NCBI GenBank assembly: GCA_002707335.2
Contig: PAMN02000027.1
Span: forward strand, 1-32,000
Origin: Methanobacteriota archaeon
Lineage (GTDB): Archaea > Thermoplasmatota > Poseidoniia > Poseidoniales > Poseidoniaceae
Length of the DNA: 32,000 nt
Direction of reading: 5' to 3'
The notes below the pieces were generated by a model, which was not told where the DNA came from, did no database searches, and saw only the letters and a list, made by a program, of their open reading frames with translations. Shown in pieces: positions 475 through 12,231 of this stretch; the stretch's first letter is position 1; each line of letters begins with the position of its first letter. A program made the translations under genes and the position numbers.

Positions 475-488
475 TTAGGGACACCTAA
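475..488 (+). promoter_or_regulatory. Candidate operator site 1 (TTAGGGACACCTAA) immediately upstream of a TATA-like box
   Basis: 14-bp quasi-palindrome TTAGG-N4-CCTAA. One of five copies in the window, all intergenic and all in the same orientation relative to the downstream gene. Confidence 0.5.
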
Positions 489-490
489 AC

Positions 491-501
491 TTTATGTATA
501 T
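491..501 (+). promoter_or_regulatory. TATA-like box (TTTATGTATAT) for the 536.. operon
   Basis: AT-rich element about 40 nt upstream of the ATG at 536, bracketed by the two operator-like sites. Confidence 0.35.
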
Positions 502-508
502 CCGACTT

Positions 509-522
509 TTCGGGCGACCTAA
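509..522 (+). promoter_or_regulatory. Candidate operator site 2 (TTCGGGCGACCTAA), over the expected transcription start
   Basis: Has one mismatch to TTAGGG-N3-CCTAA. It starts exactly 34 bp after site 1 and ends 13 nt before the ATG at 536. Confidence 0.45.
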
Positions 523-535
523 ATCGAGATGATTA

Positions 536-1819
536 ATGATGAGTTTGAAAATAAAATCTATGCTAATGATGCTTTTATTGAGTTGCGCTGCTATGGCTGG
601 TTGCCTAGGCACTGACGACGAAGAAGAAAAGGATACAGAAGACCCTGCTGACGAAAAACCTGCTTGGTTAGACGCTTCAGATGCAGGCTATACCTATGCA
701 TCTGACGTTGACAACCACCGTTCTTTGATGAACGATCTGTGTGAAATCAAGGCTGCTGCAAGTTCTGACGGTGGATATGATTTTGCAGGAGCAAAGGCCA
801 TTTACACTGACGGTAAGAACGCTCCGAAAGACGATGGTTCCTACAGAACACTTGCAGGATTCGCTGCTGCAACTGGTAAGAACCACAATTATGATTCCTA
901 CTACGATATGAATGGATCCATTGGCGCACACATTATGGCTGCAATGGACGGTACTGGCGATTTCGATAACACCTCCGACACAGTAAGATACCAAGGTATC
1001 GCTAAACTAACAGTTAACATGGGAATGGTCGGATACACACTTCACGAACTAAACGCTGCAATCATTAAGGCAGAAGCCGGTGATTGGGGCACTGACAAGG
1101 CTCAACACGCATGGGACGAAGGATGGGCTTTCTTCCACGGACCTGATGAACACTATGGCTGTTCACCAGCTAAGGTAATGGAGAAGAGAGCAGCTGACTT
1201 CGGAACAGCAGACGCTGACGGAGTTGCAGCAACATTTGCAGCAACAGAGGCTGCTATGAATGCAGGATTGACTGCTCTACAAAATGAGAACATGCAAGGC
1301 GTAGTAGACGCTCGTGATGAAGTTCTAAAGAACCTAGTAATCGTTTACTCACAGGCTGTTCTAAAGTACACATCCAAGATGGACAGCAACACTACTGCTG
1401 AAAAGTACCAGGCTGAAGGATACGCCTTCTGGAAGGCTATCGAAGCATACGCTGCTCCACACATGCACGACGGTTGCTACAACATGGCAGTCGGACACAA
1501 GGTCATGATGATGGGAGAAATCGACGCATCTGCTTGTGACGCTTTCATCTGGACTAACGGTAACCAGGATCCTAATGGCACAAACGACACATGTTACAAC
1601 ACTGTAAACCACATGGTTTCCACTGATGCTACTGACGAAGCAGGCTGTGATGGATACAAATCCATGTACTACATGGACAATTATGCTGCTACAATGATGA
1701 ACAACGTACTAGATCTGACTGATGCTTCTCAACTAGGAACATCCTACGATGTTACAGCTTGGCTACAACCAGTTTGGGACCATTACGGAATCACCAGTTC
1801 AGATATCGGTTCAATGTGA
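536..1819 (+). CDS. Secreted acidic lipoprotein of unknown function, Met/His/Cys-rich (candidate metal-binding protein)
   Basis: 427-aa ORF with a signal peptide and lipobox (LLLSCAAMAGC followed by LGTDDEEEKD). Contains Met/His/Cys clusters (APHMHDGCYNMAVGHKVMMMGEIDASACD, SMYYMDNYAATMMNN) and a WDEGWAFFHG motif. It is the first gene behind the double operator. Confidence 0.8.
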   Translation: MMSLKIKSMLMMLLLSCAAMAGCLGTDDEEEKDTEDPADEKPAWLDASDAGYTYASDVDNHRSLMNDLCEIKAAASSDGGYDFAGAKAIYTDGKNAPKDDGSYRTLAGFAAATGKNHNYDSYYDMNGSIGAHIMAAMDGTGDFDNTSDTVRYQGIAKLTVNMGMVGYTLHELNAAIIKAEAGDWGTDKAQHAWDEGWAFFHGPDEHYGCSPAKVMEKRAADFGTADADGVAATFAATEAAMNAGLTALQNENMQGVVDARDEVLKNLVIVYSQAVLKYTSKMDSNTTAEKYQAEGYAFWKAIEAYAAPHMHDGCYNMAVGHKVMMMGEIDASACDAFIWTNGNQDPNGTNDTCYNTVNHMVSTDATDEAGCDGYKSMYYMDNYAATMMNNVLDLTDASQLGTSYDVTAWLQPVWDHYGITSSDIGSM

Positions 1820-1849
1820 GATTGTCCTCCTCACATAGCTCAAAATCTA

Positions 1850-1889
1850 GGGGTGGCTGGTTAAACGCCAACCACTAACCAGCCACCCC
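1850..1889 (+). other. GC-rich perfect hairpin: 14-bp stem GGGGTGGCTGGTTA / TAACCAGCCACCCC with a 12-nt loop
   Basis: Read directly from the sequence. It lies in the 86-nt spacer between the lipoprotein gene and the 777-aa gene. The GC content is conspicuous in an AT-rich genome. Confidence 0.6.
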
Positions 1890-1905
1890 ACTCGGAGCGA
1901 TTACC

Positions 1906-4239
1906 ATGAGATTGATTTGCCCACTTATTTGTGCGCTTTTCATGTTCACGATTATCCCTTTAGAGATAGCAATGGCAGATTCTAATGATGAAGGCAATTT
2001 GTTTAGTTTATACGGCAATTTGTACGATGAGGAAGGTAACCCTGCTGCAGAAACCTCAATGAAACTTGTTCCGAGAGGATCGATATGGGCAGATGGGGGT
2101 ACTTACTCAATAGAAAATATATCTGAAGGTGAATACACTGTAAGAGCCTATTTCATGAACAATGGGCATACGGTAGTATACCGAACAATATACATTGATT
2201 CAGATACAGAACTTGACTGGCAAGTAGGTAAAAACTGGGCCACTGGAAAGTTATACGACAATGCCGAACAATTAATCGAAAACCCAGATTTGACCAATGT
2301 CAAGTTAATAGAGACAAATGAATCTGAGACTACAGATAACGGGAGATTCTCCTTGGGCCCATATGAAATTGGTAATTACTACACATTAAGAGCTTATTAT
2401 GGAGATATTGATCATTCTACACAGTTTGTCCACTTCAAAATGCAGTCAGGTTCTGCGACTGAATTTGACATCAATGATTTTGAATTCTATCATGGTAAAA
2501 ATAGTCGATATGGTTTCGTAAAAGATTCAGCAGGTAATTCAATGCCAGGAGTGACCGTAAGCAACGGAGATCAAACTGTTACTACTAACTCAGATGGATT
2601 TTACCTGCTACAAAACCTAGAGATAGGTATTGAAAACAATTTTACATTTATGCATGGAGAAAACGAGGTTGCTCCGCCAATAACGGAAATAATCACATCT
2701 GGAGAAGGATGGATGAACAACACCGGCACGATTGAAATTAATCTACCAGGTAATGCATCATTTACTACACAGGTCCAGGTTATTGAAAAGAATAAACCAT
2801 TTTTGATAGAATGGAATGGCGGTGCCTATACAGAATCATATTCACTTTACAGGAATGGTATAATTACATACTCAGGTACGAAGAGTGAGTACTCATTCAC
2901 ACCTCAACAAACTGGAAATTTTGAATTTACATTAGTAGCTGAAAATAATAATGGCACAACTGAGACTTTCAAGACCCTAGTTCTGATGGTGCTCCCTGAA
3001 CAATCAAGTTCAGATTTGTGGGCAGTAGGTATGTATTGGAATTATACTGTTGATTACTTTCCTTCCAGTGATAATCAAAATATTACGATGACTGCGATTG
3101 GTAAAGAAACTGTTACGGACGCATTTGGCTTCGAAAGAGATTCATTTGTGATTAGAATGTCAGGATCACATTATGAGGATGAAGAAAAATCCTACAGATG
3201 GGTAGATACTCAAAATCTACTGTATCTGCGCACATATTGGGTCGATGACCCAGACTCATCGTCATATTTCCAAGAAGGCACTCTAGGATGGGATTTCACT
3301 GATGCTAATGGAAACAAAACTGATTTATTTTCATTAGAAAATGGGTCAAATCTCCATTTTAATAGAACCAATATCATAGGTGTTCCTGGTCATCCCAATG
3401 GATACGATGACACACAAAATTCCATCCAAGTAACTGACAATGTGGTTATCACTACTGCTGCAGGAACATTTTCTACAACATATATTTGTATTATCGATAA
3501 TAATGACGGAGTAAAATCATGGGAATTATGGTATAATGACACTGTAAGAAACTGGGTAAAGAAAATCGATCGGCTCCCAGGTTCTCATTCGGATTCCGTT
3601 GAAATGGAACTGACTTCATTTGTCGTTCCAGTTACACCTCAATTTATTACTGAAGATTCTAATATATCTACAAAGAATCATCTTATCGAATGGGCTTCCT
3701 TCCAGGGTGCCTCTTCATATGAACTTCTTCACAATGGAGAAGTCGTATATTCGGGTTCTAACACGTCTTTCGAAATCAGAAATAGCGAAGACGGAAGGTT
3801 TGTCTATCAAATCAATGCAATAATATCTCAAAATTACAAAATTACAGGAGACATTTTGACTCTAGATGTATTTTACATTCTACTTCCGCCTGTCTTGGAA
3901 ACGAATGTAGATACAATTACTGAAGGAGAGAAATTGAAGTTATCATGGAATCCTGTGGAGGATTCAATTTGGTATTCAGTAATTGTACAAAATGACGATA
4001 ATTCACCTGTGGAAGTGTACAACGGCTCTAAAACAGAATTTACTACATCTGACCTAGATGTTGGATTAAATAGAATTAGGATTAGTGCTGGATCTTCTGA
4101 TGGAAAAGTTTCTGAATTATCCGATTCGATATTCATCAAGGTAGAACCTGAAGAGGATTCTGGTTTACCATCAATTGGTATTTTGGCATCTATATTCTGC
4201 GTTTTAGCAGCGGCTTTTGTTCTAAAAAGAAATGATTGA
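1906..4239 (+). CDS. Anchored surface protein with carboxypeptidase-regulatory-like and FN3-like repeats and a C-terminal sorting signal
   Basis: 777-aa ORF with an N-terminal signal peptide. Three CarboxypepD_reg-like units (e.g. YGFVKDSAGNSMPGVTVSNGDQTVTTNSDGFYLLQNLEIG). Three FN3-like units (IEWNGGAYTESYSLYRNG..YSG, IEWASFQGASSYELLHNGEVVYSG, LSWNPVEDSIWYSVIV). C-terminus: EPEEDSGLPSIGILASIFCVLAAAFVLKRND. Confidence 0.8.
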   Translation: MRLICPLICALFMFTIIPLEIAMADSNDEGNLFSLYGNLYDEEGNPAAETSMKLVPRGSIWADGGTYSIENISEGEYTVRAYFMNNGHTVVYRTIYIDSDTELDWQVGKNWATGKLYDNAEQLIENPDLTNVKLIETNESETTDNGRFSLGPYEIGNYYTLRAYYGDIDHSTQFVHFKMQSGSATEFDINDFEFYHGKNSRYGFVKDSAGNSMPGVTVSNGDQTVTTNSDGFYLLQNLEIGIENNFTFMHGENEVAPPITEIITSGEGWMNNTGTIEINLPGNASFTTQVQVIEKNKPFLIEWNGGAYTESYSLYRNGIITYSGTKSEYSFTPQQTGNFEFTLVAENNNGTTETFKTLVLMVLPEQSSSDLWAVGMYWNYTVDYFPSSDNQNITMTAIGKETVTDAFGFERDSFVIRMSGSHYEDEEKSYRWVDTQNLLYLRTYWVDDPDSSSYFQEGTLGWDFTDANGNKTDLFSLENGSNLHFNRTNIIGVPGHPNGYDDTQNSIQVTDNVVITTAAGTFSTTYICIIDNNDGVKSWELWYNDTVRNWVKKIDRLPGSHSDSVEMELTSFVVPVTPQFITEDSNISTKNHLIEWASFQGASSYELLHNGEVVYSGSNTSFEIRNSEDGRFVYQINAIISQNYKITGDILTLDVFYILLPPVLETNVDTITEGEKLKLSWNPVEDSIWYSVIVQNDDNSPVEVYNGSKTEFTTSDLDVGLNRIRISAGSSDGKVSELSDSIFIKVEPEEDSGLPSIGILASIFCVLAAAFVLKRND

Positions 4240-4261
4240 GAGCGGTTTTTGAGAAGGTGAA

Positions 4262-5350
4262 GTGATGCGATACAAGGTTGTCATTTCGATTTTTCAAGCG
4301 ATTATAGTAATTGTGTGTGCAATTGGAATCTACAATTATGCATTAAAACAAAACACTGACGAAACAGGAGAAATAATTATCACAGATTCAAATGGAGTCA
4401 AACACTACTTTGATGAGCCGCCCAGTAGGGTTGCAATAACCAACACTTATGCAGGGACGGTAATGCGCATGCTAGACATAAACGAATCACACATTGTTGG
4501 TGTTTCTGGTGACTTTAGTGATGAAAAATTGTGGCCAGAGCTTTCAAAAAAACCTATGATTCAGCAATCGGCTCACTCAGAAATAGATTTTGAAGCTATA
4601 CTCGATTCAAGAGCCGACATATACATTGTATTTGCAAACAATGGGATGGTAGATACAGGGGGCATTAGAGAAAAATTAGAGCCTGTTGGTGTGAAAGTTG
4701 TTGCTCTTGATTTTTACAAATATGATTCATTGAGATATGAAATAGACGTTTTAGCAACAATGTTTGGAAAGGAAAACCAAAGAGACATTCTATTCAATGA
4801 GTTTGATGAAATTGAGTCGTTAGTAGAATCAAAGTTGGTATCTTTGGAAGATTCAAATCGACCACAAATAGTGATGGAACATCATGCTTCTCTGACTAGA
4901 GATCCTGTGGTTCTAACTGGAACATCTCAGTGGACAGATTTGATACAAAGGGCAGGAGGGATAAATGTGTTCGAGGATTTACCTGGACATACCACTCATG
5001 TTGACATGGAAGCAATTTTGGACAAAAATCCTGACATCTTGATGTTTGACGGAATTACATTTGACATAGGATACAACAGATATGATGATACTGGTACGAC
5101 TTGTGAGACTCACATGCAGCATATTGAGAGTAGATCAGGTTTCGAAGAATTAAACGCAATAAAGAATGATAAGATGTTAGTTCTTTCTGGTGAATTCGCA
5201 GGACCAATGATGATTCACGGACTACCAACATTAGCGAAATATCTTCATCCTGATTTATTCGAAGATGTCGATTCAGAATCATATTTGGATGCCTATTTCA
5301 CAAAATATCACGATGTAGAACGAATTGGCAAATTTGTTTGTACTACATAG
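4262..5350 (+). CDS. ABC transporter substrate-binding protein, Peripla_BP_2 class (Fe-siderophore/haem/cobalamin type), N-terminally membrane anchored
   Basis: 362-aa ORF. GGTGA Shine-Dalgarno-like element just upstream, GTG at 4262 and ATG at 4265. N-terminal TM. RVAITNTYAGTVMRMLD...VGVSG...IDFEAILDSRADIYIV follows the FhuD/BtuF/FecB family pattern. It sits directly upstream of FecCD permease and ATPase genes. Confidence 0.8.
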   Translation: MMRYKVVISIFQAIIVIVCAIGIYNYALKQNTDETGEIIITDSNGVKHYFDEPPSRVAITNTYAGTVMRMLDINESHIVGVSGDFSDEKLWPELSKKPMIQQSAHSEIDFEAILDSRADIYIVFANNGMVDTGGIREKLEPVGVKVVALDFYKYDSLRYEIDVLATMFGKENQRDILFNEFDEIESLVESKLVSLEDSNRPQIVMEHHASLTRDPVVLTGTSQWTDLIQRAGGINVFEDLPGHTTHVDMEAILDKNPDILMFDGITFDIGYNRYDDTGTTCETHMQHIESRSGFEELNAIKNDKMLVLSGEFAGPMMIHGLPTLAKYLHPDLFEDVDSESYLDAYFTKYHDVERIGKFVCTT

Positions 5351-6517
5351 GTGGTTGATCAAATGGATTCAATCTCCCTGCAACACGTTGAGAAAGGAAA
5401 ATATCAACTTTTAATAATTTTAGGACTTGCAGTTTTTACTTTGTTATCGGCTGTTTTCGCATTGGGTCTGGGTTCATCATCTAATCTTGACATGGTTACT
5501 AGTTGGAAAATTGTAATTTCTGATACAAAGAAATTTTTTCTCAATATTGATACCGTAGCTGATAATTTGTGGTACAATTTGACCGCTTGTATATCATCAT
5601 CTTCTTGTGAAGACCGGTCTCTTTTGCATGGAATAGAACGTGAAGGCACGAATATCCAAAATGCGATAATTTGGGACTGGAGGTTTCCAAGGATTCTGAC
5701 TGCAATAGTAGGAGGCATTGCCCTGGCTGTAGCTGGAGCATTGATGCAAGGATGTTTGGGCAACCCATTAGTTTCACCGTTAACACTGGGAGTTGCTTCA
5801 GGTGCAGCTCTTGGCGCTGCGTTTGCAATCGTTCTTGGTTTCACAATATTGTCTATTCCTGAACTCGCAATTGTTGCTAATGCATTCTTTTTCTCTCTGG
5901 TTGTTGTTACTATTATCATTCAGTTAGGTAAAATCCGTTCAATTAGCGCTGAATCATATATTCTTGTTGGTATTGCGATTACATTCATTTGCGGAGCTAT
6001 TGTGTCAACAATGCAATATTTTGCTACAGATGCTCAGTTATCCCAACTCGCACATTGGTCATTTGGAAGCCTATCTAGGCCTAGCGGTGGAAATGTAATA
6101 TTGATGGGTCTAATTCTGGCATCATTACTTCCAACCGCACTTAAATGGTCTTGGGACCTTAACACACTCTCAATGGGAGGTGATGAATTTGCTATATCCA
6201 CAGGAGTAAATCCAAGTAAAATCCGTAAAAATATTCTCATTGTTTCGGCTCTTATGACATCTATTGTGATTGCTTTCACAGGTTTGATTGGTTTCGTTGG
6301 ATTAGCAGCACCCCACATGAGTAGACTTATTGTGGGTAATGATTTTAGAAAATTAATTCCATGTTCGGGATTATTCGGTGCTTTTTTGATGATTTTTGCG
6401 GATACATTGGGTAGAACTCTTTTTGCTCCAATTGTAATTCCTGTGGGTGTTATGCTTTCGATAATAGGGGGTCCTTTTTTCATGTATTTATTGCTCAGGC
6501 GAGGTGGTCATCATTAA
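5351..6517 (+). CDS. FecCD/BtuC-family iron-chelate ABC permease
   Basis: 388-aa ORF. PRILTAIVGGIALAVAGALMQGCLGNPLVSPLTLGVASGAALGAA is the classic FecCD signature, and the protein is multi-TM. The true start may be the ATG at 5363, which has GGTGG 8 nt upstream. Confidence 0.9.
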   Translation: MVDQMDSISLQHVEKGKYQLLIILGLAVFTLLSAVFALGLGSSSNLDMVTSWKIVISDTKKFFLNIDTVADNLWYNLTACISSSSCEDRSLLHGIEREGTNIQNAIIWDWRFPRILTAIVGGIALAVAGALMQGCLGNPLVSPLTLGVASGAALGAAFAIVLGFTILSIPELAIVANAFFFSLVVVTIIIQLGKIRSISAESYILVGIAITFICGAIVSTMQYFATDAQLSQLAHWSFGSLSRPSGGNVILMGLILASLLPTALKWSWDLNTLSMGGDEFAISTGVNPSKIRKNILIVSALMTSIVIAFTGLIGFVGLAAPHMSRLIVGNDFRKLIPCSGLFGAFLMIFADTLGRTLFAPIVIPVGVMLSIIGGPFFMYLLLRRGGHH

Positions 6518-7325
6518 CAAAATCTTGGATGTGACAAACCTCAACTTTTCATGGGGGAGTAATGAAGTTTTGAAAGACATTAGTTTCTCTATGAAATCCA
6601 ATGAGGTTGTTGCGATATTGGGTATTAATGGTGCTGGAAAATCTACCCTAATCAAATGCCTAAATAGAATACTATCGCCAAAATCTGGAGATATACATAT
6701 TCGCCCTCATTGGAGTAATTTAAAAGAAACTAATCTAATCAATATCTCATCACTCGATCTTGTCGAGATATCAAAAACGATGTCATATGTACCACAAAAT
6801 GTTGCAACAAGTTTCCCCATGGATGTATTCGACGTAGTACTTCTTGGTCGCAAGCCACACCTAAGTTGGAGAATCAGTGATGAAGATAGAGACAAAGTTA
6901 GCGAAACTTTGAGGTATCTAAATCTAGAAGACTTTGCTTTTCGAAAGTTTAATCAGATATCAGGAGGAGAAAGACAAAGAGTAATTATTGCTAAGGCAAT
7001 TGCCCAAGATCCTAATTTGTTTTTATTTGATGAGCCAACAAGTGATTTAGATCTTAAAAATCAAATACAGATTATGAAATGTATAAGAAAAATAATCAAA
7101 GATAAAAACAATTCAAAATCTGCCTTAATTGCCATACATGACATAAATATAGCAGCAAAGTATTCAGATAAGATTCTCCTATTGAATAATGGTTCTATTA
7201 TGGCATATGGCCCGCCGTCTCAGGTCCTTACCGAGGAAAATATTGCAGAGGTATTTGGTGTAAAATGTTCCATTTCCTCAGTAGATAAGCATTATATTCG
7301 CGTTGATGTAGACGATGAAATCTAA
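6504..7325 (+). CDS. ABC transporter ATP-binding protein (FepC/BtuD-like)
   Basis: Walker A GINGAGKST, signature ISGGERQRV, Walker B LFLFDEPTSDLD. Overlaps the permease gene by 14 nt. Confidence 0.9.
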   Translation: MVIINKILDVTNLNFSWGSNEVLKDISFSMKSNEVVAILGINGAGKSTLIKCLNRILSPKSGDIHIRPHWSNLKETNLINISSLDLVEISKTMSYVPQNVATSFPMDVFDVVLLGRKPHLSWRISDEDRDKVSETLRYLNLEDFAFRKFNQISGGERQRVIIAKAIAQDPNLFLFDEPTSDLDLKNQIQIMKCIRKIIKDKNNSKSALIAIHDINIAAKYSDKILLLNNGSIMAYGPPSQVLTEENIAEVFGVKCSISSVDKHYIRVDVDDEI

Positions 7326-7345
7326 AAATAAATTAAAGTGATAAT

Positions 7346-8167
7346 ATGACAAAGAAAACGAGTGACTTATCAAGACATGGCGTACCTAAAGGAAAGAGAA
7401 GAGTACAACAAGAACTTCTTTACGACCCTGATATTCCAACGCCAACTCATGCAGAATATTCTATGACAATAGCTCACAAAAAGAATACTGCAACATTATG
7501 TACAATTTCGATAAACGAGGGAAACCATCCATATGGTTCGTTTGTTACATATGCAATGTATGAAGGAAATCCTATTTTCTTGATTAGCAAGTTAGCGGAA
7601 CATACTAAGAATCTCCGAGCAAATTCTAAATCATCATTATTGATTGCTGAAGGAGGCGATGAAAACCCACTTGCTTTAGGCCGCATAACCCTGGTAGGAA
7701 ACTGTACAAAACTTTCCAAAGAGGATAACCCAGAAGTAAAATCAATATTCTTGGAAGAGCATCCAAGCGCACGTTTTTATGTTGATTTCGAAGATTTTGA
7801 CTTTTATTGCTTAAATGTTGAAACTATTAGATACATAGGCGGTTTCGGTAGAATGTCTTGGGTAGACTCTGACAATTGGTTTAAATCTGAACCTGATCCA
7901 TTGGAGCCATATTCAAAAGATATTATCGAACATATGAACGATGATCATCGTGATGCAATGGTAATTCTCTGTCAGAAGATGAGTAAAGCCACCGATACGA
8001 CAGATGCAGTGATGGTGGCAATAGATCGTTATGGATTTGAAATGTCTGCGGTAACTGAAGATGGAGAACGTCCGATTCGTTTGGCATTTGATAACCAAGC
8101 CAGCAATTCAGAAGAGGCAAGAGTTGAGATAATAACCTTGGTCAAAAGAGCAAGAGCCTCCGAATGA
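7346..8167 (+). CDS. HugZ/COG0748-like haem-iron utilisation protein (PNPOx-like split barrel + DUF2470)
   Basis: 273-aa ORF. Split-barrel pattern: ATLCTISINEGNHPYGSFVTYAMYEGNPIFLISKLAEHTKNLRANSKSSLLI...RITLVG. C-terminal DUF2470-like segment: IIEHMNDDHRDAMVILCQ. It lies immediately after the FecBCD-type transporter. Confidence 0.7.
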   Translation: MTKKTSDLSRHGVPKGKRRVQQELLYDPDIPTPTHAEYSMTIAHKKNTATLCTISINEGNHPYGSFVTYAMYEGNPIFLISKLAEHTKNLRANSKSSLLIAEGGDENPLALGRITLVGNCTKLSKEDNPEVKSIFLEEHPSARFYVDFEDFDFYCLNVETIRYIGGFGRMSWVDSDNWFKSEPDPLEPYSKDIIEHMNDDHRDAMVILCQKMSKATDTTDAVMVAIDRYGFEMSAVTEDGERPIRLAFDNQASNSEEARVEIITLVKRARASE

Positions 8168-8199
8168 TGCAATTGTAAGGTTTTGAATACACGGAACGA

Positions 8200-8922
8200 G
8201 TGGGATTGTTGGGGGGACTTAATTTGTCAAGCAGCGAATTGATTCTCTCAGTTGAAAATCTAACAGTCGGTTACAATGAAGAGTTGATTTCGAAGATCAA
8301 CTTAGAAATAAATACGGGAGATGTAATTGCTGTTGTCGGACCTTCTGGTATAGGAAAAACAACGCTACTGAGGACTATTGCGGGATTGGTGAAACCAATT
8401 TCAGGAGACATTTTTTGTAAGGCTCCTAAAAGGGGAGGAATCGGTTACATCCCTCAAAAGTTAGGCCTAGTACGCCATACTAGTGTCTATCATAATGTGG
8501 ATTTGGGTGCTAGATCAGGCTCAAGATTTTTTTCTGAGCCAAAAACCTGGTTCAAAAGAAGAAGTGAAAGAGTAACGACAGCAGTCGAAAGAATGGGACT
8601 TTCAGATAAAATGAATGAGCCAGTAAGGCGTTTATCTGGTGGCCAGCAAAGAAGAGTTGCGACAGCGAGAACACTGGCTCAAAGACCAAAATTAATTCTT
8701 GCTGATGAGTTTTTAAGCGAACTGGATGAAGATAATATTTCAATTGTTCTAGATGCTGTAAAAGAATATATGGCTGCTAGCGAATCTGCAATGATTATTG
8801 TTGAACATAACATTCAGAGAGCAACCGAAATTTCTACTCGTCTACTTCAGATTAAAAATGGCGAATTAGTAGAGTACAATCCTTCAGAAATGAAATTTGA
8901 TCTAGATGGTGGTTTAATATGA
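8200..8922 (+). CDS. phnC: PhnC-like ABC transporter ATP-binding protein
   Basis: Walker A GPSGIGKTT, signature LSGGQQRRVATARTL. Atypical Walker B, ILADEFLSELD, with F where P is usual. The PhnC-like insertion between the Q-loop and the signature is present. The GTG start is uncertain. Confidence 0.75.
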   Translation: MGLLGGLNLSSSELILSVENLTVGYNEELISKINLEINTGDVIAVVGPSGIGKTTLLRTIAGLVKPISGDIFCKAPKRGGIGYIPQKLGLVRHTSVYHNVDLGARSGSRFFSEPKTWFKRRSERVTTAVERMGLSDKMNEPVRRLSGGQQRRVATARTLAQRPKLILADEFLSELDEDNISIVLDAVKEYMAASESAMIIVEHNIQRATEISTRLLQIKNGELVEYNPSEMKFDLDGGLI

Positions 8923-8931
8923 GGTGTTACA

Positions 8932-9837
8932 ATGAATAGAGCACTCAAAAAAATCATCTTCACAACGGTTACTCTTTCTGTGCTGTGCTATATCTTTCTT
9001 AATGATTTATTGCAAGGCGATTGGAGTGTTCTCTCTGCAAGTTGGGATAACCTAGAAACATTTTGGAATGAGTCTCTTTGGCCTCCAGAATGGAGTATGT
9101 TAGAAGCCAGGAAATACCCAGAGTGTGGATCAAGCATTGGGTTTTTCTGTTCCAAAGCCTACATTGGAATGCTTGAAACACTAAAAATGGCATTTGTTGC
9201 AACAATAATTGGGTTTACCATAGCAATATTTCTGTCTCCGTTTGCAGCAAAAAACCTCACATCTGCTTGGGTTTACATCCCAATGAGAATAATTCTAGCA
9301 GCAACTAGAAGTCTTCCAAGCATTATATGGGCTATAATCTTCGTAGTAATTGTAGGCCTAGGTCCTTTAGCTGGAGTACTAGCAATGACATTTTACACAG
9401 TAGGGTATCTAGGTAAATTGCAGTATGAAGAAATGGAAGGTGTTCAAAATAGCCCTCTCGAGGCTGCGAGGGCAATGGGGTTATCTCATCCAGAAATCGT
9501 AGCTAACGTTGTCATACCAGAATCAAGCAATAATTTACTTAGTCAACTGCTATTTATGTTTGAATACAATGTTAGACACGGTTCAATCCTTGGTTTAGTT
9601 GGAGCGGGAGGCATAGGATTTTATTTGCAATTCTACTTGAACTTCTTGATGTATAAACACGTTATGGCTTTCATCGTTGTTATTCTGGTGGTTGTAATAA
9701 TCATAGATTTGATGTCGATGTACATACGCTCATTCGTTACAGAAGATGGTGATGTAAAACGACCATCTTGGTCAACAATATTCTTATCTCCAAATCAAGC
9801 AAAGAAATACCATCATGGTAAATCGGAAGAAGAATGA
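8932..9837 (+). CDS. phnE: PhnE-like ABC transporter permease
   Basis: 301-aa multi-TM ORF. EAARAMGLSHPEIVANVVIPES...RHGSILGLVGAGGIGFYL matches the PhnE signature, including GAGGIG. GAGGTG Shine-Dalgarno-like element upstream. Confidence 0.8.
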   Translation: MNRALKKIIFTTVTLSVLCYIFLNDLLQGDWSVLSASWDNLETFWNESLWPPEWSMLEARKYPECGSSIGFFCSKAYIGMLETLKMAFVATIIGFTIAIFLSPFAAKNLTSAWVYIPMRIILAATRSLPSIIWAIIFVVIVGLGPLAGVLAMTFYTVGYLGKLQYEEMEGVQNSPLEAARAMGLSHPEIVANVVIPESSNNLLSQLLFMFEYNVRHGSILGLVGAGGIGFYLQFYLNFLMYKHVMAFIVVILVVVIIIDLMSMYIRSFVTEDGDVKRPSWSTIFLSPNQAKKYHHGKSEEE

Positions 9838-11048
9838 ATTTGGTTCAATTGATAAATTGTTCCAGCCCAACTGAATATCAGTAATTCATCATTTGTTCCT
9901 TTACCAAATCCTACTATCATGGTTCCAACATTGCCTACCTCTGATGTCGACCAATTGCCATCGATGTTTTTGATTGTCCACAATTGTCCACTGCAGAAAT
10001 CGCCATACAAGTAGCCATCTCGTAAAGGATTTGGCCCCCAATCCATCCAGAAACCCCCGATGATTGAGCAATGCCCTTCATGGTTATACTGTGCAACAGG
10101 ATCGGTAAATTTTGGATCAGGAGTAGACCTATTATCGTAACAACCTCCATTTCTATCAAGGTCATGGAATCCTTCCCTTTCAGACCAGCCAAAATTTGAA
10201 CTTTGCATTACCGGGATTACATTAACTTCCTCATAACATAACTGACCAACATCTGCTATCCAAAGATTACCTGTGGGATCTACATCGATTCTCCAAGGAT
10301 TTCTAAGACCATAGTGTAGTGTTTGGCTCAGATTTTGTGATTCTTCAACGGGCACTATACTTTCATTTTCATAATGAATCAATTGTATAGTACCAAGAGG
10401 CGAGGATGAATTTTGTCCGTGCTCGTGTGGGTCGAAGCTTCCCCCTCCATCTCCAAGACTCCATAAATACTGATTATTGCCTATGGACAATATATTTCCT
10501 CCATTGTGATTTCTATTCGATTTATTTACAGTTATTAGTACCTCTAATGTGTCGAGTTGAATCTTTTCATCTATCACTTTTGCATGTGCTAAAACTACAT
10601 TAGAATCCTCTGCGCTCTTACACGTATTGTTTTCGTTGTATACCAACAAAACCCTTCCTGTGTTTGCATAGTCTTCATCAAAATCCATCCCAAGTAGACC
10701 CTGTTCGTGGTGACATCTTGAAACGATACCTGACAGGTCACCAACAACATCTGACTGTACAGGAAGTTGTTGGCCTTCAGGCAGTGACCACTTCGTAATG
10801 ACTCCGTCCAAGTTTGCTATCCAAATTGAATCACTCAATGGGTCTTCTAATGTAATGATAGGAGTTGCATTCATGCTAGCGTAATATTCACAAACTAGAC
10901 CGGTTTCATTGGAAATATTACAATCGATTTCAACTTGCTCAGGCCAAATAAATCTTTTCTTTTCTTCCTCTTTTTCGTCTCCGAAGCATCCGGAAAGGAC
11001 GCTAGATAGCAAGAAAATAGCAATAAGATATGTACGAACTTTTTTCAT
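9813..11048 (-). CDS. PQQ-dependent sugar dehydrogenase-like (GSDH family) beta-propeller lipoprotein
   Basis: Contains NHNGGNILSIGNNQYLWSLGDGGGS, GLRNPWRIDVDPTGNLWIADVGQLCYEEVNVI and NFGWSEREG, which are the GSDH (PF07995-type) motifs. Signal and lipobox: LLSSVLSGC. I place the start at MKKVRTYL (11048), 1 nt after the upstream stop, rather than at the ORF-track start 11099. Confidence 0.8.
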   Translation of the reverse strand: MKKVRTYLIAIFLLSSVLSGCFGDEKEEEKKRFIWPEQVEIDCNISNETGLVCEYYASMNATPIITLEDPLSDSIWIANLDGVITKWSLPEGQQLPVQSDVVGDLSGIVSRCHHEQGLLGMDFDEDYANTGRVLLVYNENNTCKSAEDSNVVLAHAKVIDEKIQLDTLEVLITVNKSNRNHNGGNILSIGNNQYLWSLGDGGGSFDPHEHGQNSSSPLGTIQLIHYENESIVPVEESQNLSQTLHYGLRNPWRIDVDPTGNLWIADVGQLCYEEVNVIPVMQSSNFGWSEREGFHDLDRNGGCYDNRSTPDPKFTDPVAQYNHEGHCSIIGGFWMDWGPNPLRDGYLYGDFCSGQLWTIKNIDGNWSTSEVGNVGTMIVGFGKGTNDELLIFSWAGTIYQLNQIHSSSDLP

Positions 11049-11049
11049 T

Positions 11050-12129
11050 TCAATCGTATTTATCATTAAAGTAAGCGGTGATTCCAGGTACGTCCTCAAT
11101 CAGACTACCGTAGTTACCGAGGTGATCTTGCGTGTTAATGATAGTAATTCCAGGAGTACTCATTACATCCTGTAAAATTTCTACGTCATCTGAGTTAGAA
11201 CTCATATCAGAGAATGCATTCTGTATTGTTACAACCATTTCATCTGACATATAATCCGGATTGTACATAATTGGATGGCTTGGAGCCTTTCCAAATGTTG
11301 GCAGTGCGTAATAGTCGTTTACGTCCTTAAATTCACCTTCAAAGCACCAATCTTCATTGTCATCAGGGTCTTCATTGCCACAGTAATCTGGAACTGTAGG
11401 GTCCTTAGCGAAGGAAATGAAGTCTTTTCCACCCTCTGCTAAACAGCGAAGGGAACCTATGTACTTGTGATATTTTGTACCGCTATCTGGTATACTAGAA
11501 TCTTCATTGAAATGATTATACACAGTATCTGTCAAGGAACTGATATCATCTGGATCTCCGACAACTTCGATATAACCTCTGTCAATCATCCATCCCATCG
11601 GAAGTAGCATTCCTGAACTTCCTAATGCAGATGTGTGGCACGATGTTTTACCTTCCATCAAAGCGAATGGATCTGTTGAATTATCATCATCTTGGTCGGC
11701 CAATGCCATGTCTGAATCTTTGTGAACCCATGCGATCGCATTGTAGAATGGTCTTCCATCTTGCTTTTGTTCAGCACCTAAAACCTGTAAGTCGTGTGTT
11801 TGCCAACTGAGCCAAGCAGCACCGCCGTCAAGGAACCCAATATCGGCATGTCCAAATCTCAATGCTTCAATAGTTGCACCAGGACTTGATACGGGGTAAA
11901 TTTCAACGTCCATTCCGATAATTTCTGAAAGCCTATCTGCTAGCTCCTGTGGATTTTCTTCGGTATTCTGGTATTCTTCTTTTGTCTCGAATGCGATTGT
12001 TAAACAGTTGTCTGGGTCATCACATTTCTTGAATGTAACCATACTATCGTCTGTAAATAAACAGCCGGGCATTGCAGCAGATATAAAGAAAATCGTCACT
12101 AAAAACGGGAGGGTCAATTTGGCATTCAT
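11050..12129 (-). CDS. Lipoprotein substrate-binding protein of the PhnD/transferrin superfamily with a transferrin-like Fe-ligand set
   Basis: 359-aa ORF with signal and lipobox (FFISAAMPGC). Motifs ADIGFLDGG, PFYNAIAWVHKDS, GKTSCHTSALGSSGMLLPMG, KYIGSLRCLAEGGKDFISFAK and APSHPIM align by eye to the human serotransferrin N-lobe around Asp63, Tyr95, Thr120, Tyr188 and His249. A pipeline would probably label it a phosphate/phosphite/phosphonate ABC substrate-binding protein. Confidence 0.8.
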   Translation of the reverse strand: MNAKLTLPFLVTIFFISAAMPGCLFTDDSMVTFKKCDDPDNCLTIAFETKEEYQNTEENPQELADRLSEIIGMDVEIYPVSSPGATIEALRFGHADIGFLDGGAAWLSWQTHDLQVLGAEQKQDGRPFYNAIAWVHKDSDMALADQDDDNSTDPFALMEGKTSCHTSALGSSGMLLPMGWMIDRGYIEVVGDPDDISSLTDTVYNHFNEDSSIPDSGTKYHKYIGSLRCLAEGGKDFISFAKDPTVPDYCGNEDPDDNEDWCFEGEFKDVNDYYALPTFGKAPSHPIMYNPDYMSDEMVVTIQNAFSDMSSNSDDVEILQDVMSTPGITIINTQDHLGNYGSLIEDVPGITAYFNDKYD

Positions 12130-12139
12130 GGTATCACAA

Positions 12140-12153
12140 TTAGGCTGCCCTAA
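12140..12153 (-). promoter_or_regulatory. Candidate operator site (reads TTAGGGCAGCCTAA on the minus strand), 10 nt upstream of the ATG at 12129
   Basis: Same 14-bp motif as at 475/509, oriented with the downstream (minus-strand) gene. Confidence 0.5.
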
Positions 12154-12162
12154 AATAATCTG

Positions 12163-12173
12163 CTTAATATATT
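12163..12173 (-). promoter_or_regulatory. TATA-like box (AATATATTAAG on the minus strand) for the 12129.. operon
   Basis: AT-rich element bracketed by two operator-like sites, about 35-45 nt upstream of the ATG. Confidence 0.35.
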
Positions 12174-12187
12174 TTAGGCCGCCCTAA
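12174..12187 (-). promoter_or_regulatory. Candidate operator site (reads TTAGGGCGGCCTAA on the minus strand) abutting the TATA-like box
   Basis: Starts exactly 34 bp from the 12140 site, the same spacing as the 475/509 pair. Confidence 0.5.
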
Positions 12188-12231
12188 ATCAAACTGTAAT
12201 TCACTATTGAGTAAAGTATAAGTGGCGTTGT

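What the first reader, a model, noticed from the sequence alone, without database searches (positions are those of the whole stretch)
536..12129. Composite metal-acquisition supercluster: three uptake modules between two matching promoters
Gene order between the two operator-bearing promoters is as follows. On the plus strand: Met/His/Cys-rich lipoprotein, 777-aa anchored surface protein, FecB-like binding protein, FecCD permease, ATPase, HugZ-like protein, PhnC-like ATPase, PhnE-like permease. Converging from the minus strand: the GSDH-like lipoprotein and the transferrin-like lipoprotein. The transporter whose binding protein looks like transferrin is split across the two strands. Its 3' ends overlap by 25 nt (9813-9837). 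As a unit, this combination of a surface protein, an unknown lipoprotein, a haem-type importer, a haem-degrading-type enzyme, a transferrin-like importer and a propeller dehydrogenase is not a described system that I recognise.
Basis: inference. Interest (0 to 1): 0.7.

Follow-up and report, generated by a model that had tools for sequence, protein, structure and literature searches.

The report
Iron-uptake gene island with archaeal transferrin
A marine planktonic archaeon (Marine Group II) keeps a block of iron-scavenging genes behind a shared DNA switch of the iron-sensing type; one gene is a real relative of animal transferrin that serves a membrane pump, a gene that databases usually label as a phosphonate transporter.

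Summary
All ten ORFs, their order, the 25-nt convergent overlap (9813-9837) and the matching promoter elements are present. The shared element is a palindrome, TTAGG-N4-CCTAA. It occurs five times in the window, only in the two intergenic regions. In 80 related Poseidoniales loci, 107 of its 112 exact copies lie upstream of five cluster genes. In other contigs the same tandem box precedes Nramp, FeoB, FTR1 and DtxR-family regulator genes. In seven related loci a DtxR-FeoA regulator is encoded divergently next to cluster genes. I therefore read it as a DtxR-type metal-repressor operator.

The "transferrin-like" lipoprotein is a true transferrin-family member. Its best solved relatives are ovotransferrin and lactoferrin (E 2e-18). 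Asp, Tyr, Tyr and His ligands and the anion Thr are invariant; the anion Arg is Gly here. In other loci it heads an SBP-PhnC-PhnE operon, often as a ~700-aa bilobal protein. The FecB/FecCD module is followed by a HOZ/MSMEG_6519-type haem-binding protein, and gene 1 is a FEA1-related lipoprotein.

The block is intact in close relatives. It is shuffled but still clustered in others, and split into modules elsewhere. A third boxed promoter drives an 892-aa gene outside the given coordinates.

Best reading: a co-regulated iron-starvation island of separable modules. No metal binding was tested.

The parts
475..522 (+). g1 promoter. Distal box 475-488 (TTAGGGACACCTAA), TATA-like element 491-500 (TTTATGTATA) and proximal box 509-522 (TTCGGGCGACCTAA), 13 nt before the ATG at 536.
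   Evidence: Both boxes, including the TTCGGG variant, are conserved in L203.
536..1819 (+). g1: FEA1-related lipoprotein (lipobox AGC). Mostly alpha-helical, with a Met/His/Cys-rich C-terminal part.
   Evidence: NF038033 scores 285.6 against cutoff 250; Pfam Fea1 E 2.5e-16. AF2 model pLDDT 80 is helical. No PDB fold match and no PDB sequence match. 775 homologues were found; the named ones are Euryarchaeota MAGs.
1850..1889 (+). 14-bp-stem hairpin between g1 and g2. Possibly a transcript-end or stability element that sets the g1:downstream ratio (inference).
   Evidence: -32.1 kcal/mol, z -5.7. Conserved in L003, L004 and L006, with paired substitutions in the stem relative to the window (T>C with A>G).
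1906..4239 (+). g2: 777-aa surface protein with a signal peptide and a C-terminal membrane anchor. It has Ig-like/CarboxypepD_reg-like segments below Pfam thresholds. Function unknown; always next to g3.
   Evidence: No PDB sequence match. Adjacent to g3 in 17 of the 18 loci that have it. It has its own box in L028, L046 and L048, and a box lies between g2 and g10 in L021.
4262..7325 (+). g3-g5: type II ABC importer of the haem/siderophore/corrinoid class. g3 is a membrane-anchored Peripla_BP_2 binding protein, g4 a FecCD permease and g5 the ATPase.
   Evidence: The best solved relatives of g3 are iron/siderophore-type SBPs 9hrj and 6b2x, E 2e-15. The substrate is not resolved.
7346..8167 (+). 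g6: cytoplasmic HOZ-family split-barrel plus DUF2470 haem-binding (possibly haem-degrading) protein.
   Evidence: PDB 5bnc 'heme binding protein MSMEG_6519' E 5.7e-43; AtHOZ1 6m09 E 1.3e-30; PtHOZ1. Family described in PMC11602992. Below the HugZ equivalog cutoff (76 against 240).
8200..9837 (+). g7 and g8: PhnC-like ATPase and PhnE-type permease. These are the membrane part of the transporter served by g10.
   Evidence: TIGR01097 239 against 216.7; TIGR02315 156 against 266. The order g10-g7-g8 occurs on one strand in 29 loci and in L202.
9813..11048 (-). g9: GSDH-family six-bladed-propeller-type lipoprotein, tightly coupled to g10 (1-nt gap). Role unknown.
   Evidence: Pfam GSDH 67.8 against 25. 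Weak match to soluble quinoprotein glucose dehydrogenase. Follows g10 in 52 of 79 loci.
11050..12129 (-). g10: monolobal transferrin-family lipoprotein. It is the substrate-binding protein of the g7/g8 importer and is predicted to bind Fe(III).
   Evidence: Pfam Transferrin 57.6 against 20.3 and Phosphonate-bd 82.1 against 27. PDB best hits are ovotransferrin and lactoferrin, E 2e-18, with D101/Y129/T166/Y223/H285 aligned to Asp60/Tyr92/Thr117/Tyr191/His250. These residues are invariant in 23 homologues. AF2 pLDDT 84; the fold matches both PtxB/PhnD-type SBPs and transferrin lobes. E. coli PhnD gives only 36 bits.
12140..12187 (-). g10 promoter. Box 12174-12187, TATA-like element 12164-12173 (read on the - strand) and box 12140-12153, 10 nt before the ATG at 12129.
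   Evidence: 86 of 112 exact boxes in 80 related loci lie within 400 bp upstream of g10.
12213..12245 (+). g11 promoter. TATA-like element 12213-12222 and box 12232-12245, 11 nt before the TTG at 12257.
   Evidence: Boxes upstream of g11 in L007, L020, L025 and L027.
12257..14935 (+). g11: 892-aa membrane protein with an N-terminal alkaline-phosphatase-superfamily ectodomain and a polytopic C-terminal half. Co-conserved and boxed, but outside the finding's coordinates. Function unknown.
   Evidence: Pfam Phosphodiest and Metalloenzyme. Weak ENPP/iPGM matches. Present beside g10/g9 in 27 loci.

Best explanation
This is an iron-starvation island of a Marine Group II (Poseidoniaceae) archaeon. 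It is a set of separable iron-acquisition modules that sit together and share one repressor. Which steps are shown and which are inferred is marked below.

Regulation (inferred from conserved boxes and from regulator genes next to cluster genes in related loci). A DtxR-family metal-dependent repressor is encoded elsewhere in this genome. With metal bound, it occupies 14-bp palindromes (TTAGG-N4-CCTAA). At the g1 and g10 promoters the boxes flank the TATA element. At the g11 promoter one box lies between the TATA element and the start codon. Binding would block initiation. Low iron releases the repressor.

Products:
1. A FEA1-type lipoprotein on the cell surface. It is presumed to bind Fe(III), by homology to algal FEA1/ISIP2a.
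2. A large anchored surface protein and a FecB/FecCD/ATPase importer, followed by a cytoplasmic HOZ-type haem-binding or haem-degrading protein. The most likely reading is haem uptake with release of its iron. A siderophore substrate is not excluded.
3. A lipid-anchored, single-lobe transferrin homologue. It is predicted to capture unchelated Fe(III) with the Asp/Tyr/Tyr/His site and hand it to a PhnC/PhnE-type ABC importer. The genetic link between binding protein and importer is shown. Iron binding is inferred. A GSDH-like propeller lipoprotein of unknown role is co-translated with it.
4. A membrane-bound alkaline-phosphatase-superfamily protein of unknown role.

The ten- or eleven-gene assembly is specific to one sub-lineage. 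Elsewhere the modules occur apart.
For: Organism: close homologues and 80 of 80 best loci are Poseidoniales.

Operator:
- Five boxes occur only in the two intergenic regions of the window.
- 112 exact boxes occur in 1.2 Mb of related loci. 86 lie upstream of g10, 7 of g1, 6 of g7, 4 of g11 and 4 of g2.
- In unrelated contigs the tandem box lies upstream of Nramp with a divergent DtxR gene, of DtxR-FeoA regulator genes, of FeoB and of FTR1.
- A 219-aa DtxR-FeoA regulator is divergent from g10 (L049, L051, L056, L070), from g1 (L028) or from g2 (L046, L048), with the boxes in between.

Transferrin homologue:
- Pfam Transferrin is above threshold.
- PDB phmmer returns transferrins at E 2e-18, with all four metal ligands and the Thr aligned.
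- These residues are invariant across 49-89% identity and conserved in most related lobes.
- A profile of the family reaches animal transferrins and melanotransferrins at about 1e-23 to 1e-28 in a library of 1.84 billion proteins.
- The E. coli PhnD match is weak and covers the N-terminal half only.

Link to the importer: g10-g7-g8 operons in 29 loci and L202.

Iron context: flavodoxin follows that operon in 13 loci. FEA1 membership is met. The HOZ match is strong.

Cohesion: the block is intact while its flanks differ between the window (g0 on the left, g11 on the right) and relatives at ~90% identity (g12-g14 on the left, g0 on the right).
Against: - No binding, transport or expression data exist; everything rests on homology and context.
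- The anion-anchoring Arg of transferrins is Gly170 in the window's clade and Lys in the sister clade. The site may therefore work differently or bind another ligand.
- Model coordinates could not be inspected, so the geometry of the four ligands was not checked.
- g10 also matches the phosphonate-binding family, and its permease passes the PhnE equivalog cutoff.
- The closest solved relatives of the FecB-like protein are siderophore-type, not haem-type.
- DtxR-family repressors can sense Mn as well as Fe.
- No regulator gene is present in the window.
- The roles of g2, g9 and g11 are unknown.
Confidence: 0.68

Rival explanations
1. Juxtaposition of unrelated transporters. g3-g5 import cobalamin (BtuFCD-like). 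g10/g7/g8 import phosphonate, phosphite or phosphate (PhnDCE/PtxABC-like). g11 is a phosphoesterase. The locus would then concern vitamins and phosphorus, not metals.
For: - g4 and g5 score nearly as well against BtuC and corrinoid ATPase models as against iron models.
- g10 hits Phosphonate-bd at 82 bits, and g8 passes the PhnE equivalog cutoff.
- Foldseek ranks PtxB and AioX first.
- g11 belongs to the alkaline-phosphatase superfamily.
- Source databases name g10 homologues as phosphate/phosphonate SBPs.
Against: - g10 is far below the PhnD cutoffs: TIGR03431 36 against 261, and TIGR01098 59 against 112. It gives only 36 bits to E. coli PhnD, while it carries the full transferrin metal-ligand set.
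- The same operator serves FEA1, the FecBCD-type module and g10. Elsewhere that operator precedes Nramp, FeoB, FTR1 and DtxR genes.
- A haem-binding HOZ protein follows the importer.
- No C-P lyase or other phosphonate catabolism genes appear among the recurrent neighbours.
- No cobalamin riboswitch was found.
Confidence: 0.08
2. The island is real and metal-regulated, but the metal is not iron. The regulator could be a Mn-sensing (or other divalent-metal-sensing) DtxR/MntR-type protein. The transferrin-like SBP, which lacks the carbonate-anchoring Arg, would then carry another metal.
For: - The same box precedes Nramp (Mn/Fe) genes.
- DtxR-family members include Mn sensors (established knowledge).
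- The Arg is replaced by Gly.
- Transferrins bind many metals; the PDB hits include Ti, Bi and V complexes.
Against: - The box also precedes FeoB and FTR1, which are iron-specific.
- The regulator has the three-domain DtxR/IdeR-like architecture with an FeoA/SH3-like domain.
- FEA1, the HOZ haem protein and neighbouring flavodoxin all point to iron.
- An Asp/Tyr/Tyr/His site is a hard-ligand site suited to Fe(III) (established knowledge).
Confidence: 0.12
3. One integrated machine. All ten or eleven proteins cooperate physically in a relay: surface capture by g2 and g1, hand-over to g10, and chemistry by g9. The cluster would then be an obligate unit.
For: The block stays intact while its flanks change. 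The genes remain neighbours after reshuffling in several lineages. The g10-g9 pair is very tightly conserved.
Against: - In L009-L016 the g10-g9 pair has no g7/g8-type importer genes (at 35% identity or more) within the ~10 kb searched.
- In 29 loci g10-g7-g8 occurs without g1-g6 and g9.
- Thalassarchaeaceae-type loci use a different, unrelated surface protein next to g10.
- g7 and g2 have their own boxes in some genomes.
Confidence: 0.15

Closest known systems
Eukaryotic transferrins (serotransferrin, ovotransferrin, lactoferrin, melanotransferrin; Pfam PF00405)
   Same: Homologous at sequence level: E 2e-18 to ovotransferrin, and the Pfam hit is above threshold. The Asp/Tyr/Tyr/His ligands, the anion Thr and the two Cys of the SCHT...C pair are conserved, and the fold is a type II binding-protein fold. 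Relatives of the window protein are ~700-aa bilobal proteins like animal transferrins.
   Different: The window protein has a single lobe and is lipid-anchored. It lacks the carbonate-anchoring Arg (Gly170). It works with an ABC importer rather than with receptor-mediated endocytosis. It is archaeal.
PhnDCE / PtxABC phosphonate-phosphite ABC importers
   Same: Same transporter architecture, and homologous ATPase and permease: g8 passes the PhnE equivalog cutoff. The N-terminal half of g10 matches Phosphonate-bd, and Foldseek finds PtxB, AioX and PhnD.
   Different: g10 fails the PhnD equivalog and subfamily cutoffs and matches E. coli PhnD only weakly. It carries transferrin metal ligands. Its regulation and neighbours are iron-type, and no phosphonate catabolism genes are nearby.
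FbpABC / FutABC ferric-ion ABC importers ('bacterial transferrin' FbpA)
   Same: It works like these (inference): a free or anchored binding protein with Tyr-rich ligation of Fe(III) feeds an ABC importer under iron-repressor control.
   Different: FbpA and FutA belong to another SBP family. They use a different ligand set (His/Glu/Tyr/Tyr plus an anion; established knowledge) and resemble transferrin only by convergence. g10 is a true homologue of transferrin.
Algal FEA1 / diatom ISIP2a (phytotransferrin)
   Same: g1 matches Pfam Fea1 and passes NCBIfam 'FEA1-related lipoprotein'. It is extracellular and lies under an iron-type promoter, like the low-iron-induced algal proteins (PMC7676907).
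   Different: g1 is a prokaryotic lipoprotein. No iron binding has been shown. The AF2 model is mainly helical with no solved-structure match, so it does not look like a transferrin or PBP fold.
Bacterial haem-uptake loci with HugZ/ChuZ/HutZ-type proteins (Hut/Chu/Phu, Isd)
   Same: A surface protein, a cluster-A SBP, a FecCD permease, an ATPase and a cytoplasmic split-barrel haem protein lie in one string.
   Different: g6 belongs to the HOZ/MSMEG_6519 branch, with the barrel first and DUF2470 last, and fails the HugZ equivalog cutoff. g2 has no NEAT or other known haem-receptor domain. The closest solved relatives of g3 are siderophore-type.
DtxR/IdeR/MDR1 metal-dependent repressor regulons
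   Same: Palindromic boxes overlap core promoter elements. A DtxR-family regulator lies next to target genes in related loci. The same box precedes Nramp, FeoB and FTR1.
   Different: The box is TTAGG-N4-CCTAA. It resembles the outer half-sites of the 19-bp IdeR/DtxR consensus (my recollection) but with a shorter spacer. The regulator carries a C-terminal FeoA-type domain and has not been characterised.

Membership tests
Transferrin family (PF00405) | Sequence match above the curated threshold | tested here: met
   57.6 bits against 20.3. The 60 best of 87 PDB matches listed are transferrin-family proteins; best E 2e-18.
Transferrin family (PF00405) | Four Fe(III) ligands Asp, Tyr, Tyr, His | tested here: met
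   D101, Y129, Y223 and H285 align to ovotransferrin Asp60, Tyr92, Tyr191 and His250. Invariant in 23 homologues.
Transferrin family (PF00405) | Synergistic-anion anchors Thr and Arg at the helix N-terminus | tested here: not met
   The Thr is present (T166). The Arg121 position is Gly170 in the window clade and Lys in the sister clade.
Transferrin family (PF00405) | Two-subdomain type II binding-protein fold | tested here: met
   AF2 pLDDT 84. Foldseek matches transferrin lobes at E about 1e-13 with 370-400 aligned columns.
Transferrin family (PF00405) | Bilobal architecture | tested here: not met
   The window protein has one lobe (359 aa). Orthologues of ~700 aa with two lobes occur in 18 related loci; in 10 of these both lobes carry all four sequence motifs.
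Transferrin family (PF00405) | Reversible Fe(III) binding | not testable with these tools
   Needs protein chemistry.
PhnD/PtxB phosphonate-phosphite SBPs | Match to family models | tested here: inconclusive
   Pfam Phosphonate-bd 82.1 against 27, but residues 47-197 only. TIGR03431 36.4 against 261.1 and TIGR01098 59.4 against 112.05 both fail. E. coli PhnD gives 36 bits.
PhnD/PtxB phosphonate-phosphite SBPs | Operon with PhnC and PhnE | tested here: met
   g8 passes TIGR01097. g10-g7-g8 operons occur in relatives.
PhnD/PtxB phosphonate-phosphite SBPs | Association with phosphonate or phosphite catabolism genes | tested here: not met
   None among the recurrent neighbours that were annotated, in 80 loci.
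DtxR-family regulon | Palindromic operator overlapping promoters of metal-uptake genes | tested here: met
   The same tandem box lies upstream of Nramp, FeoB, FTR1 and DtxR genes.
DtxR-family regulon | Cognate DtxR-family regulator | tested here: inconclusive
   None in the window. A DtxR-FeoA gene is divergent from g10, g1 or g2 in seven related loci.
DtxR-family regulon | Metal-dependent DNA binding | not testable with these tools
   Needs EMSA or footprinting.
FEA1-related lipoprotein (NF038033 / PF07692) | Score above the equivalog cutoff and a lipobox | tested here: met
   285.6 against 250. Lipobox AGC, invariant G22-C23.
HugZ/HOZ haem-binding split-barrel family | Split barrel plus DUF2470, related to characterised haem binders | tested here: met
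   Pfam CREG_beta-barrel 85 bits and DUF2470 66 bits. 5bnc E 5.7e-43 and 6m09 E 1.3e-30.
HugZ/HOZ haem-binding split-barrel family | HugZ equivalog (haem oxygenase proper) | tested here: not met
   TIGR04109 76 against 240, with the domain order permuted.
Cluster-A SBP / FecCD type II importers | Peripla_BP_2 SBP, FecCD permease and ATPase in an operon | tested here: met
   The substrate (haem, siderophore or corrinoid) is not resolved.
PQQ-dependent soluble glucose/sorbosone dehydrogenases | GSDH propeller; PQQ and Ca sites | tested here: inconclusive
   Pfam GSDH 67.8 against 25, but TIGR03606 34 against 434. Cofactor residues were not examined.

The most novel reading that the evidence does not exclude
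The g10 family would be a genuine prokaryotic transferrin: an Fe(III)-binding protein homologous to animal transferrin that still works as the receptor of a PhnCE-type ABC importer.

The family has one-lobe and independently duplicated two-lobe forms across Poseidoniales. Ligand-bearing relatives occur in Nitrosopumilus and Heimdallarchaeota MAGs.

In a rough, weakly supported NJ tree the archaeal proteins branch beside, and basal to, a clade of ichthyosporean and animal transferrins. This family (or its donor) could therefore mark the step from PhnD-type binding proteins to eukaryotic transferrin, with a transfer between marine archaea and early holozoans in one direction or the other.

It would also mean that the 'phosphonate transporters' annotated in the most abundant planktonic Euryarchaeota are iron importers.
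Probability: 0.45. Interest if true: 0.88.

Novelty: new variant of a known kind. Interest (0 to 1): 0.72.

Why it matters
Marine Group II archaea are among the most abundant heterotrophs of the surface ocean. They are uncultured, and their iron nutrition is essentially unknown.

This locus gives a concrete, testable picture of it:
- a DtxR-type iron switch with a defined operator;
- a haem or siderophore route;
- a FEA1-type surface protein of the kind known from algae;
- an ABC importer whose receptor is a true transferrin homologue.

If g10 binds Fe(III), three things follow:
- The widespread annotation of these genes as phosphate/phosphonate transporters misassigns them in ocean metagenome and metatranscriptome studies of phosphorus and iron cycling.
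- The operator and the g1 and g10 transcripts become markers of archaeal iron stress.
- The origin of transferrin becomes testable with real prokaryotic intermediates. So far that origin has only been linked to phosphonate-binding periplasmic proteins by phylogeny (McQuaid 2018, as summarised in PMC7676907). The intermediates would include bilobal archaeal forms and close relatives in ichthyosporeans, the unicellular kin of animals.

Tried and rejected
- Regulator inside the window: none among all larger ORFs, and no tblastn hit with the Poseidoniales DtxR-FeoA protein.
- Cobalamin or other riboswitch in 1-15500: only two sub-threshold chance hits.
- Extra degenerate boxes before g2 or g7 in the window: at two mismatches the count equals chance.
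- g2 against the 665-aa surface protein that sits beside g10 in Thalassarchaeaceae-type loci: no detectable homology.
- Model coordinates are not exposed, so the ligand geometry of g10 could not be measured.
- Literature: nine full-text searches found no paper on archaeal or prokaryotic transferrin homologues, on FEA1 in archaea, or on Poseidoniales iron uptake. McQuaid et al. 2018 is not held, so I could not check whether its phylogeny already included these sequences.
- First tree attempt timed out. The NJ tree that ran has low support for the deep nodes: archaeal monophyly 0.23, eukaryote clade 0.53. I use it only as a lead.
- A simple inversion of the block between the two promoters does not explain the different flanks in relatives; more than one rearrangement is needed.

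Full report
**What is there**

Throughout, g0-g14 number the ORFs in window order. g1-g10 are the ten genes of the finding. g0 (47-373) lies just upstream of g1. g11-g14 follow g10.

Profile searches confirm and sharpen the labels:

| Gene | Coordinates | Assignment |
|---|---|---|
| g1 | 536-1819 | FEA1-related lipoprotein (NF038033 285.6 bits, cutoff 250) |
| g2 | 1906-4239 | 777-aa anchored surface protein, only sub-threshold Ig-like signals |
| g3-g5 | 4262-7325 | Peripla_BP_2 binding protein, FecCD permease, ATPase |
| g6 | 7346-8167 | split barrel + DUF2470 |
| g7, g8 | 8200-9837 | PhnC-like ATPase; PhnE permease (TIGR01097 239 against 216.7) |
| g9 | 9813-11048, minus strand | GSDH-family lipoprotein |
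| g10 | 11050-12129, minus strand | matches both Phosphonate-bd and Transferrin |

The convergent 25-nt overlap of g8 and g9 is real. A comparable overlap occurs in a relative. g9 most likely starts at its Met18, just before the lipobox. That leaves 1 nt between the g10 stop and the g9 start. g1, g9 and g10 all carry a G-C lipobox followed by an acidic linker.

The organism is a Marine Group II archaeon. Close homologues of g1 and g10 come from Euryarchaeota/Poseidoniales MAGs, and the 80 best genomic loci are all Poseidoniales.

**The promoters**

Both intergenic regions carry the palindrome TTAGG-N4-CCTAA. With at most one mismatch it occurs five times in 32 kb, all in those two regions. Chance expectation is 0.72, and no shuffle of 100 reached five.

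The layout is the same upstream of g1 and of g10: box, TATA-like element, box, then the start codon 10-13 nt further on. A fifth box (12232-12245) lies between a TATA-like element and the start of the + strand gene g11 (12257-14935). This is a third regulated promoter, outside the finding's coordinates.

The box is conserved across the order. In 80 Poseidoniales loci (1.2 Mb) there are 112 exact copies. 86 lie within 400 bp upstream of g10 orthologues, 7 upstream of g1, 6 of g7, 4 of g11 and 4 of g2.

**Which regulator**

I scanned metagenome contigs for the tandem box. I then annotated the flanking genes in contigs that lack the cluster. The box precedes:
- Nramp with a divergent DtxR-family gene;
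- DtxR-FeoA fusion regulators, which suggests autoregulation;
- FeoB;
- FTR1.

In seven related loci a 219-aa DtxR-FeoA regulator is encoded divergently from g10, g1 or g2, with the boxes in the shared spacer. No regulator gene is in the window. The box is therefore best read as the operator of a DtxR-family metal-dependent repressor. Placing boxes on both sides of the TATA element is the classic way for an archaeal repressor to block initiation (inference).

**The transferrin-like protein**

This is the most striking part.
- Against all solved structures by sequence, the 60 best of 87 matches listed for g10 are transferrin-family proteins (ovotransferrin, lactoferrin, serotransferrin, melanotransferrin), with a best E of 2e-18.
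- In those alignments D101, Y129, Y223 and H285 sit on ovotransferrin Asp60, Tyr92, Tyr191 and His250. T166 sits on the anion-binding Thr117. The Cys of SCHT and the Cys after the second Tyr are also kept.
- The anion-anchoring Arg121 is Gly170.
- All these residues are invariant in 23 homologues of 49-89% identity. A sister clade has Lys at the Arg position.
- The AF2 model is confident (pLDDT 84). It matches both PtxB/AioX/PhnD-type binding proteins and transferrin lobes.
- E. coli PhnD aligns only weakly, and only over the N-terminal half (36 bits). The PhnD equivalog and subfamily cutoffs are missed by a wide margin.

So g10 is a member of the transferrin family in sequence and ligand set. 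It lies within the wider PhnD-type superfamily and lacks one defining residue.

**The split transporter is one system**

In 29 loci (Thalassarchaeaceae, MGIII and some Poseidoniaceae-labelled MAGs) the order is g10, g7, g8 on one strand. An independent archaeal contig shows the same order. In 13 of these loci a flavodoxin gene follows. Flavodoxin is the standard substitute for ferredoxin under iron shortage (established knowledge).

In 18 loci the orthologue is a single ~700-aa protein with two lobes. In 10 of these both lobes carry all four sequence motifs (LDGG, SCHT, YxxYG, APSHP). Some paralogues have a degenerate second lobe.

**Other modules**

*g6.* Its best solved relatives are the haem-binding protein MSMEG_6519 (E 5.7e-43) and the plant HOZ1 proteins. 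The HOZ family binds haem and either degrades or senses it. In prokaryotes it is often tied to iron assimilation (PMC11602992). g6 follows the FecB/FecCD/ATPase importer directly, here and in relatives. Haem is therefore the most likely substrate. However, the nearest solved relatives of g3 are siderophore-type binding proteins, so I leave this open.

*g1.* It passes the FEA1-related lipoprotein model. Its AF2 model (pLDDT 80) is mostly helical with a small Cys-rich C-terminal part, and it has no solved-structure counterpart. FEA1 and ISIP2a are low-iron-induced algal surface proteins, and ISIP2a is the diatom phytotransferrin (PMC7676907).

*g2, g9 and g11.* All three are co-conserved but functionally unassigned. 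g9 follows g10 in 52 of 79 loci.

**Is it a unit?**

- The same order as the window is found in L003, L004, L006 and L007 (the 10-kb flank stops within or just past g1) and in L203-L205 (flank stops within g10).
- In more distant Poseidoniaceae and MGIII the genes are reshuffled yet remain neighbours: L017/18, L020, L026, L027, L028, L047, L066.
- In relatives of ~90% identity the block, with its boxes, is intact while the flanks differ. g12-g14 lie next to g1 in L203-L205. A g0 homologue lies next to g10 in L001-L004 and L007. In the window, g0 lies next to g1 and g11 next to g10.
- That pattern argues for selection on the neighbourhood.
- Equally, g10-g9 in L009-L016 has no g7/g8-type importer genes within the ~10 kb searched, and g10-g7-g8 in 29 loci occurs without g1-g6 and g9. 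In some genomes g7 and g2 have their own boxes.

I therefore read the locus as a co-regulated island of separable modules, not as an obligate ten-gene machine.

**Rivals**

- *Cobalamin plus phosphonate.* This reading is contradicted by five results: the ligand set and weak PhnD similarity of g10; the shared iron-type operator; the haem protein; the absence of phosphonate catabolism genes among recurrent neighbours; and the absence of a riboswitch.
- *A metal other than iron.* This is possible, because DtxR-family proteins can sense Mn and the carbonate Arg is missing. FeoB, FTR1, FEA1, haem and flavodoxin all point to iron.

**Wider relatives**

A profile of the archaeal family, scored against 1.84 billion representative proteins, finds only 572 relatives.
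- Outside the Poseidoniales-type proteins, the strongest are multi-lobe proteins of ichthyosporeans (Chromosphaera with 5 lobes, Creolimax, Amoebidium, Ichthyophonus, Sphaeroforma, Abeoforma) and of the green alga Bryopsis.
- Next come animal transferrins and melanotransferrins at about 1e-23 to 1e-28.
- The Chromosphaera lobes are 26-30% identical to g10 and share even its C-terminal tail.
- Most of these lobes keep Asp/Tyr/Thr/Lys/Tyr/His.
- Single-lobe relatives with the same ligands come from Nitrosopumilus and Heimdallarchaeota MAGs.
- A rough NJ tree rooted on E. coli PhnD places those two first, then an archaeal group beside an ichthyosporean-plus-animal group. Support for the deep nodes is poor, 0.23-0.54.

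This is a lead on the origin of transferrin, not a result.

**Novelty and limits**

Every component belongs to a known family, and the overall logic (repressor, binding protein, ABC importer) is a known kind. What I could not find described in nine literature searches is:
- a transferrin-family receptor on a PhnCE-type importer;
- its bilobal archaeal forms;
- its pairing with a FEA1-type protein under a DtxR operator.

I could not read McQuaid et al. 2018, which may have sampled such sequences. NCBI already names some members 'PhnD/SsuA/transferrin family'. Nothing here tests metal binding, transport or expression.

Noticed in passing
window 12213-14935: A third boxed promoter drives g11, an 892-aa membrane protein with an alkaline-phosphatase-superfamily ectodomain and a long polytopic C-terminal half. 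It is co-conserved beside g10/g9 in 27 loci but lies outside the finding's coordinates. Its function, and its link to iron, are unexplained.
   Followed up: partly
window 1850-1889: A strong hairpin (14-bp stem, -32 kcal/mol, z -5.7) lies between g1 and g2. It is conserved in L003, L004 and L006, with paired substitutions in the stem relative to the window. It may set the ratio of g1 to downstream transcripts.
   Followed up: partly
L052, L054, L056-L059, L061-L064, L069, L074-L076, L079 (e.g. L062:9989-12103): Orthologues of g10 are single ~700-aa proteins with two transferrin-like lobes, the size and layout of animal transferrins. In 10 loci both lobes carry all four sequence motifs. They sit in an operon with PhnC- and PhnE-like genes. 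Some paralogues (P0242, P0243, P0246, P0249, P0251) have a degenerate second lobe.
   Followed up: partly
P0244, P0257, P0265, P0270, P0284, P0292, P0296, P0255: The nearest non-archaeal relatives of g10 are multi-lobe (2 to 14 repeat) proteins of ichthyosporeans and of the green alga Bryopsis. They have Lys at the anion position and share the archaeal C-terminal tail. This suggests gene transfer between marine archaea and protists, direction unknown.
   Followed up: partly
P0332 (Nitrosopumilus MAGs), P0344 (Heimdallarchaeota MAGs): Single-lobe PhnD-family binding proteins from other marine archaea also carry the Asp/Tyr/Thr/Tyr/His set but lack the Cys pair. They are annotated as phosphate/phosphite/phosphonate SBPs.
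   Followed up: no
L029:6499-6792, L031/L034/L035:6941-7213, L033:6892-7170, L038:3394-3750 (minus strand): A small (90-118 aa) Cys-rich zinc-ribbon protein with a basic Cys-rich tail lies just downstream of g11. In L029, L033 and L038 an exact operator box (core GGGCAACC or GGTCACCC) lies just upstream of it. It is not present in the window. It could be a metal-binding or regulatory protein.
   Followed up: partly
L060:7899-9896 (minus strand); also L116:152-2170, L119:326-2347, L140: In Thalassarchaeaceae-type loci a 665-680-aa surface protein is transcribed divergently from the boxed g10 promoter. It has a His-rich N-terminus (LHHHHE) and a C-terminal anchor. It has no Pfam match and no similarity to g2.
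   Followed up: partly
L060:13029-13484 and 12 other loci; L001:3014-3730, L007:1516-1911, L063:17751-18359: A flavodoxin gene follows the g10-g7-g8 operon. Riboflavin biosynthesis genes (DHBP synthase, lumazine synthase, riboflavin synthase-like) recur nearby. This fits an iron-sparing response but could be plain synteny.
   Followed up: no
window 1-535 and 12130-17504, against L003 and L203-L205: The block from the g1 boxes to the g10 boxes is intact, but its neighbours differ between the window and ~90%-identical relatives. A DCC1-like g0 lies next to g1 here and next to g10 there. g12-g14 lie next to g11 here and next to g1 there. The breakpoints fall at the operator-bearing promoters, and a single inversion does not explain the difference.
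   Followed up: partly
window 14985-17504; L061-L063, L073-L075, L079: g12 (a 279-aa membrane protein with no family) and an ABC-2-type exporter pair (g13, g14) stay next to g10 in both Poseidoniaceae and Thalassarchaeaceae. The conserved neighbourhood may therefore be larger than the finding.
   Followed up: no
L030, L031 (NZEQ01000030.1, NZEQ01000021.1): Two contigs carrying the archaeal g10-g9-g11 and g7-g8-g6-g5 genes are filed under a 'Verrucomicrobiales bacterium' MAG. This is probably a binning error.
   Followed up: no
L099:242-1018: An FTR1-type iron permease on a low-GC marine contig has a triple box. Its upstream neighbour is 91% identical over 46 aa to the Poseidoniales DtxR-FeoA regulator. 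The regulon in some relatives therefore also includes an FTR1 route.
   Followed up: no
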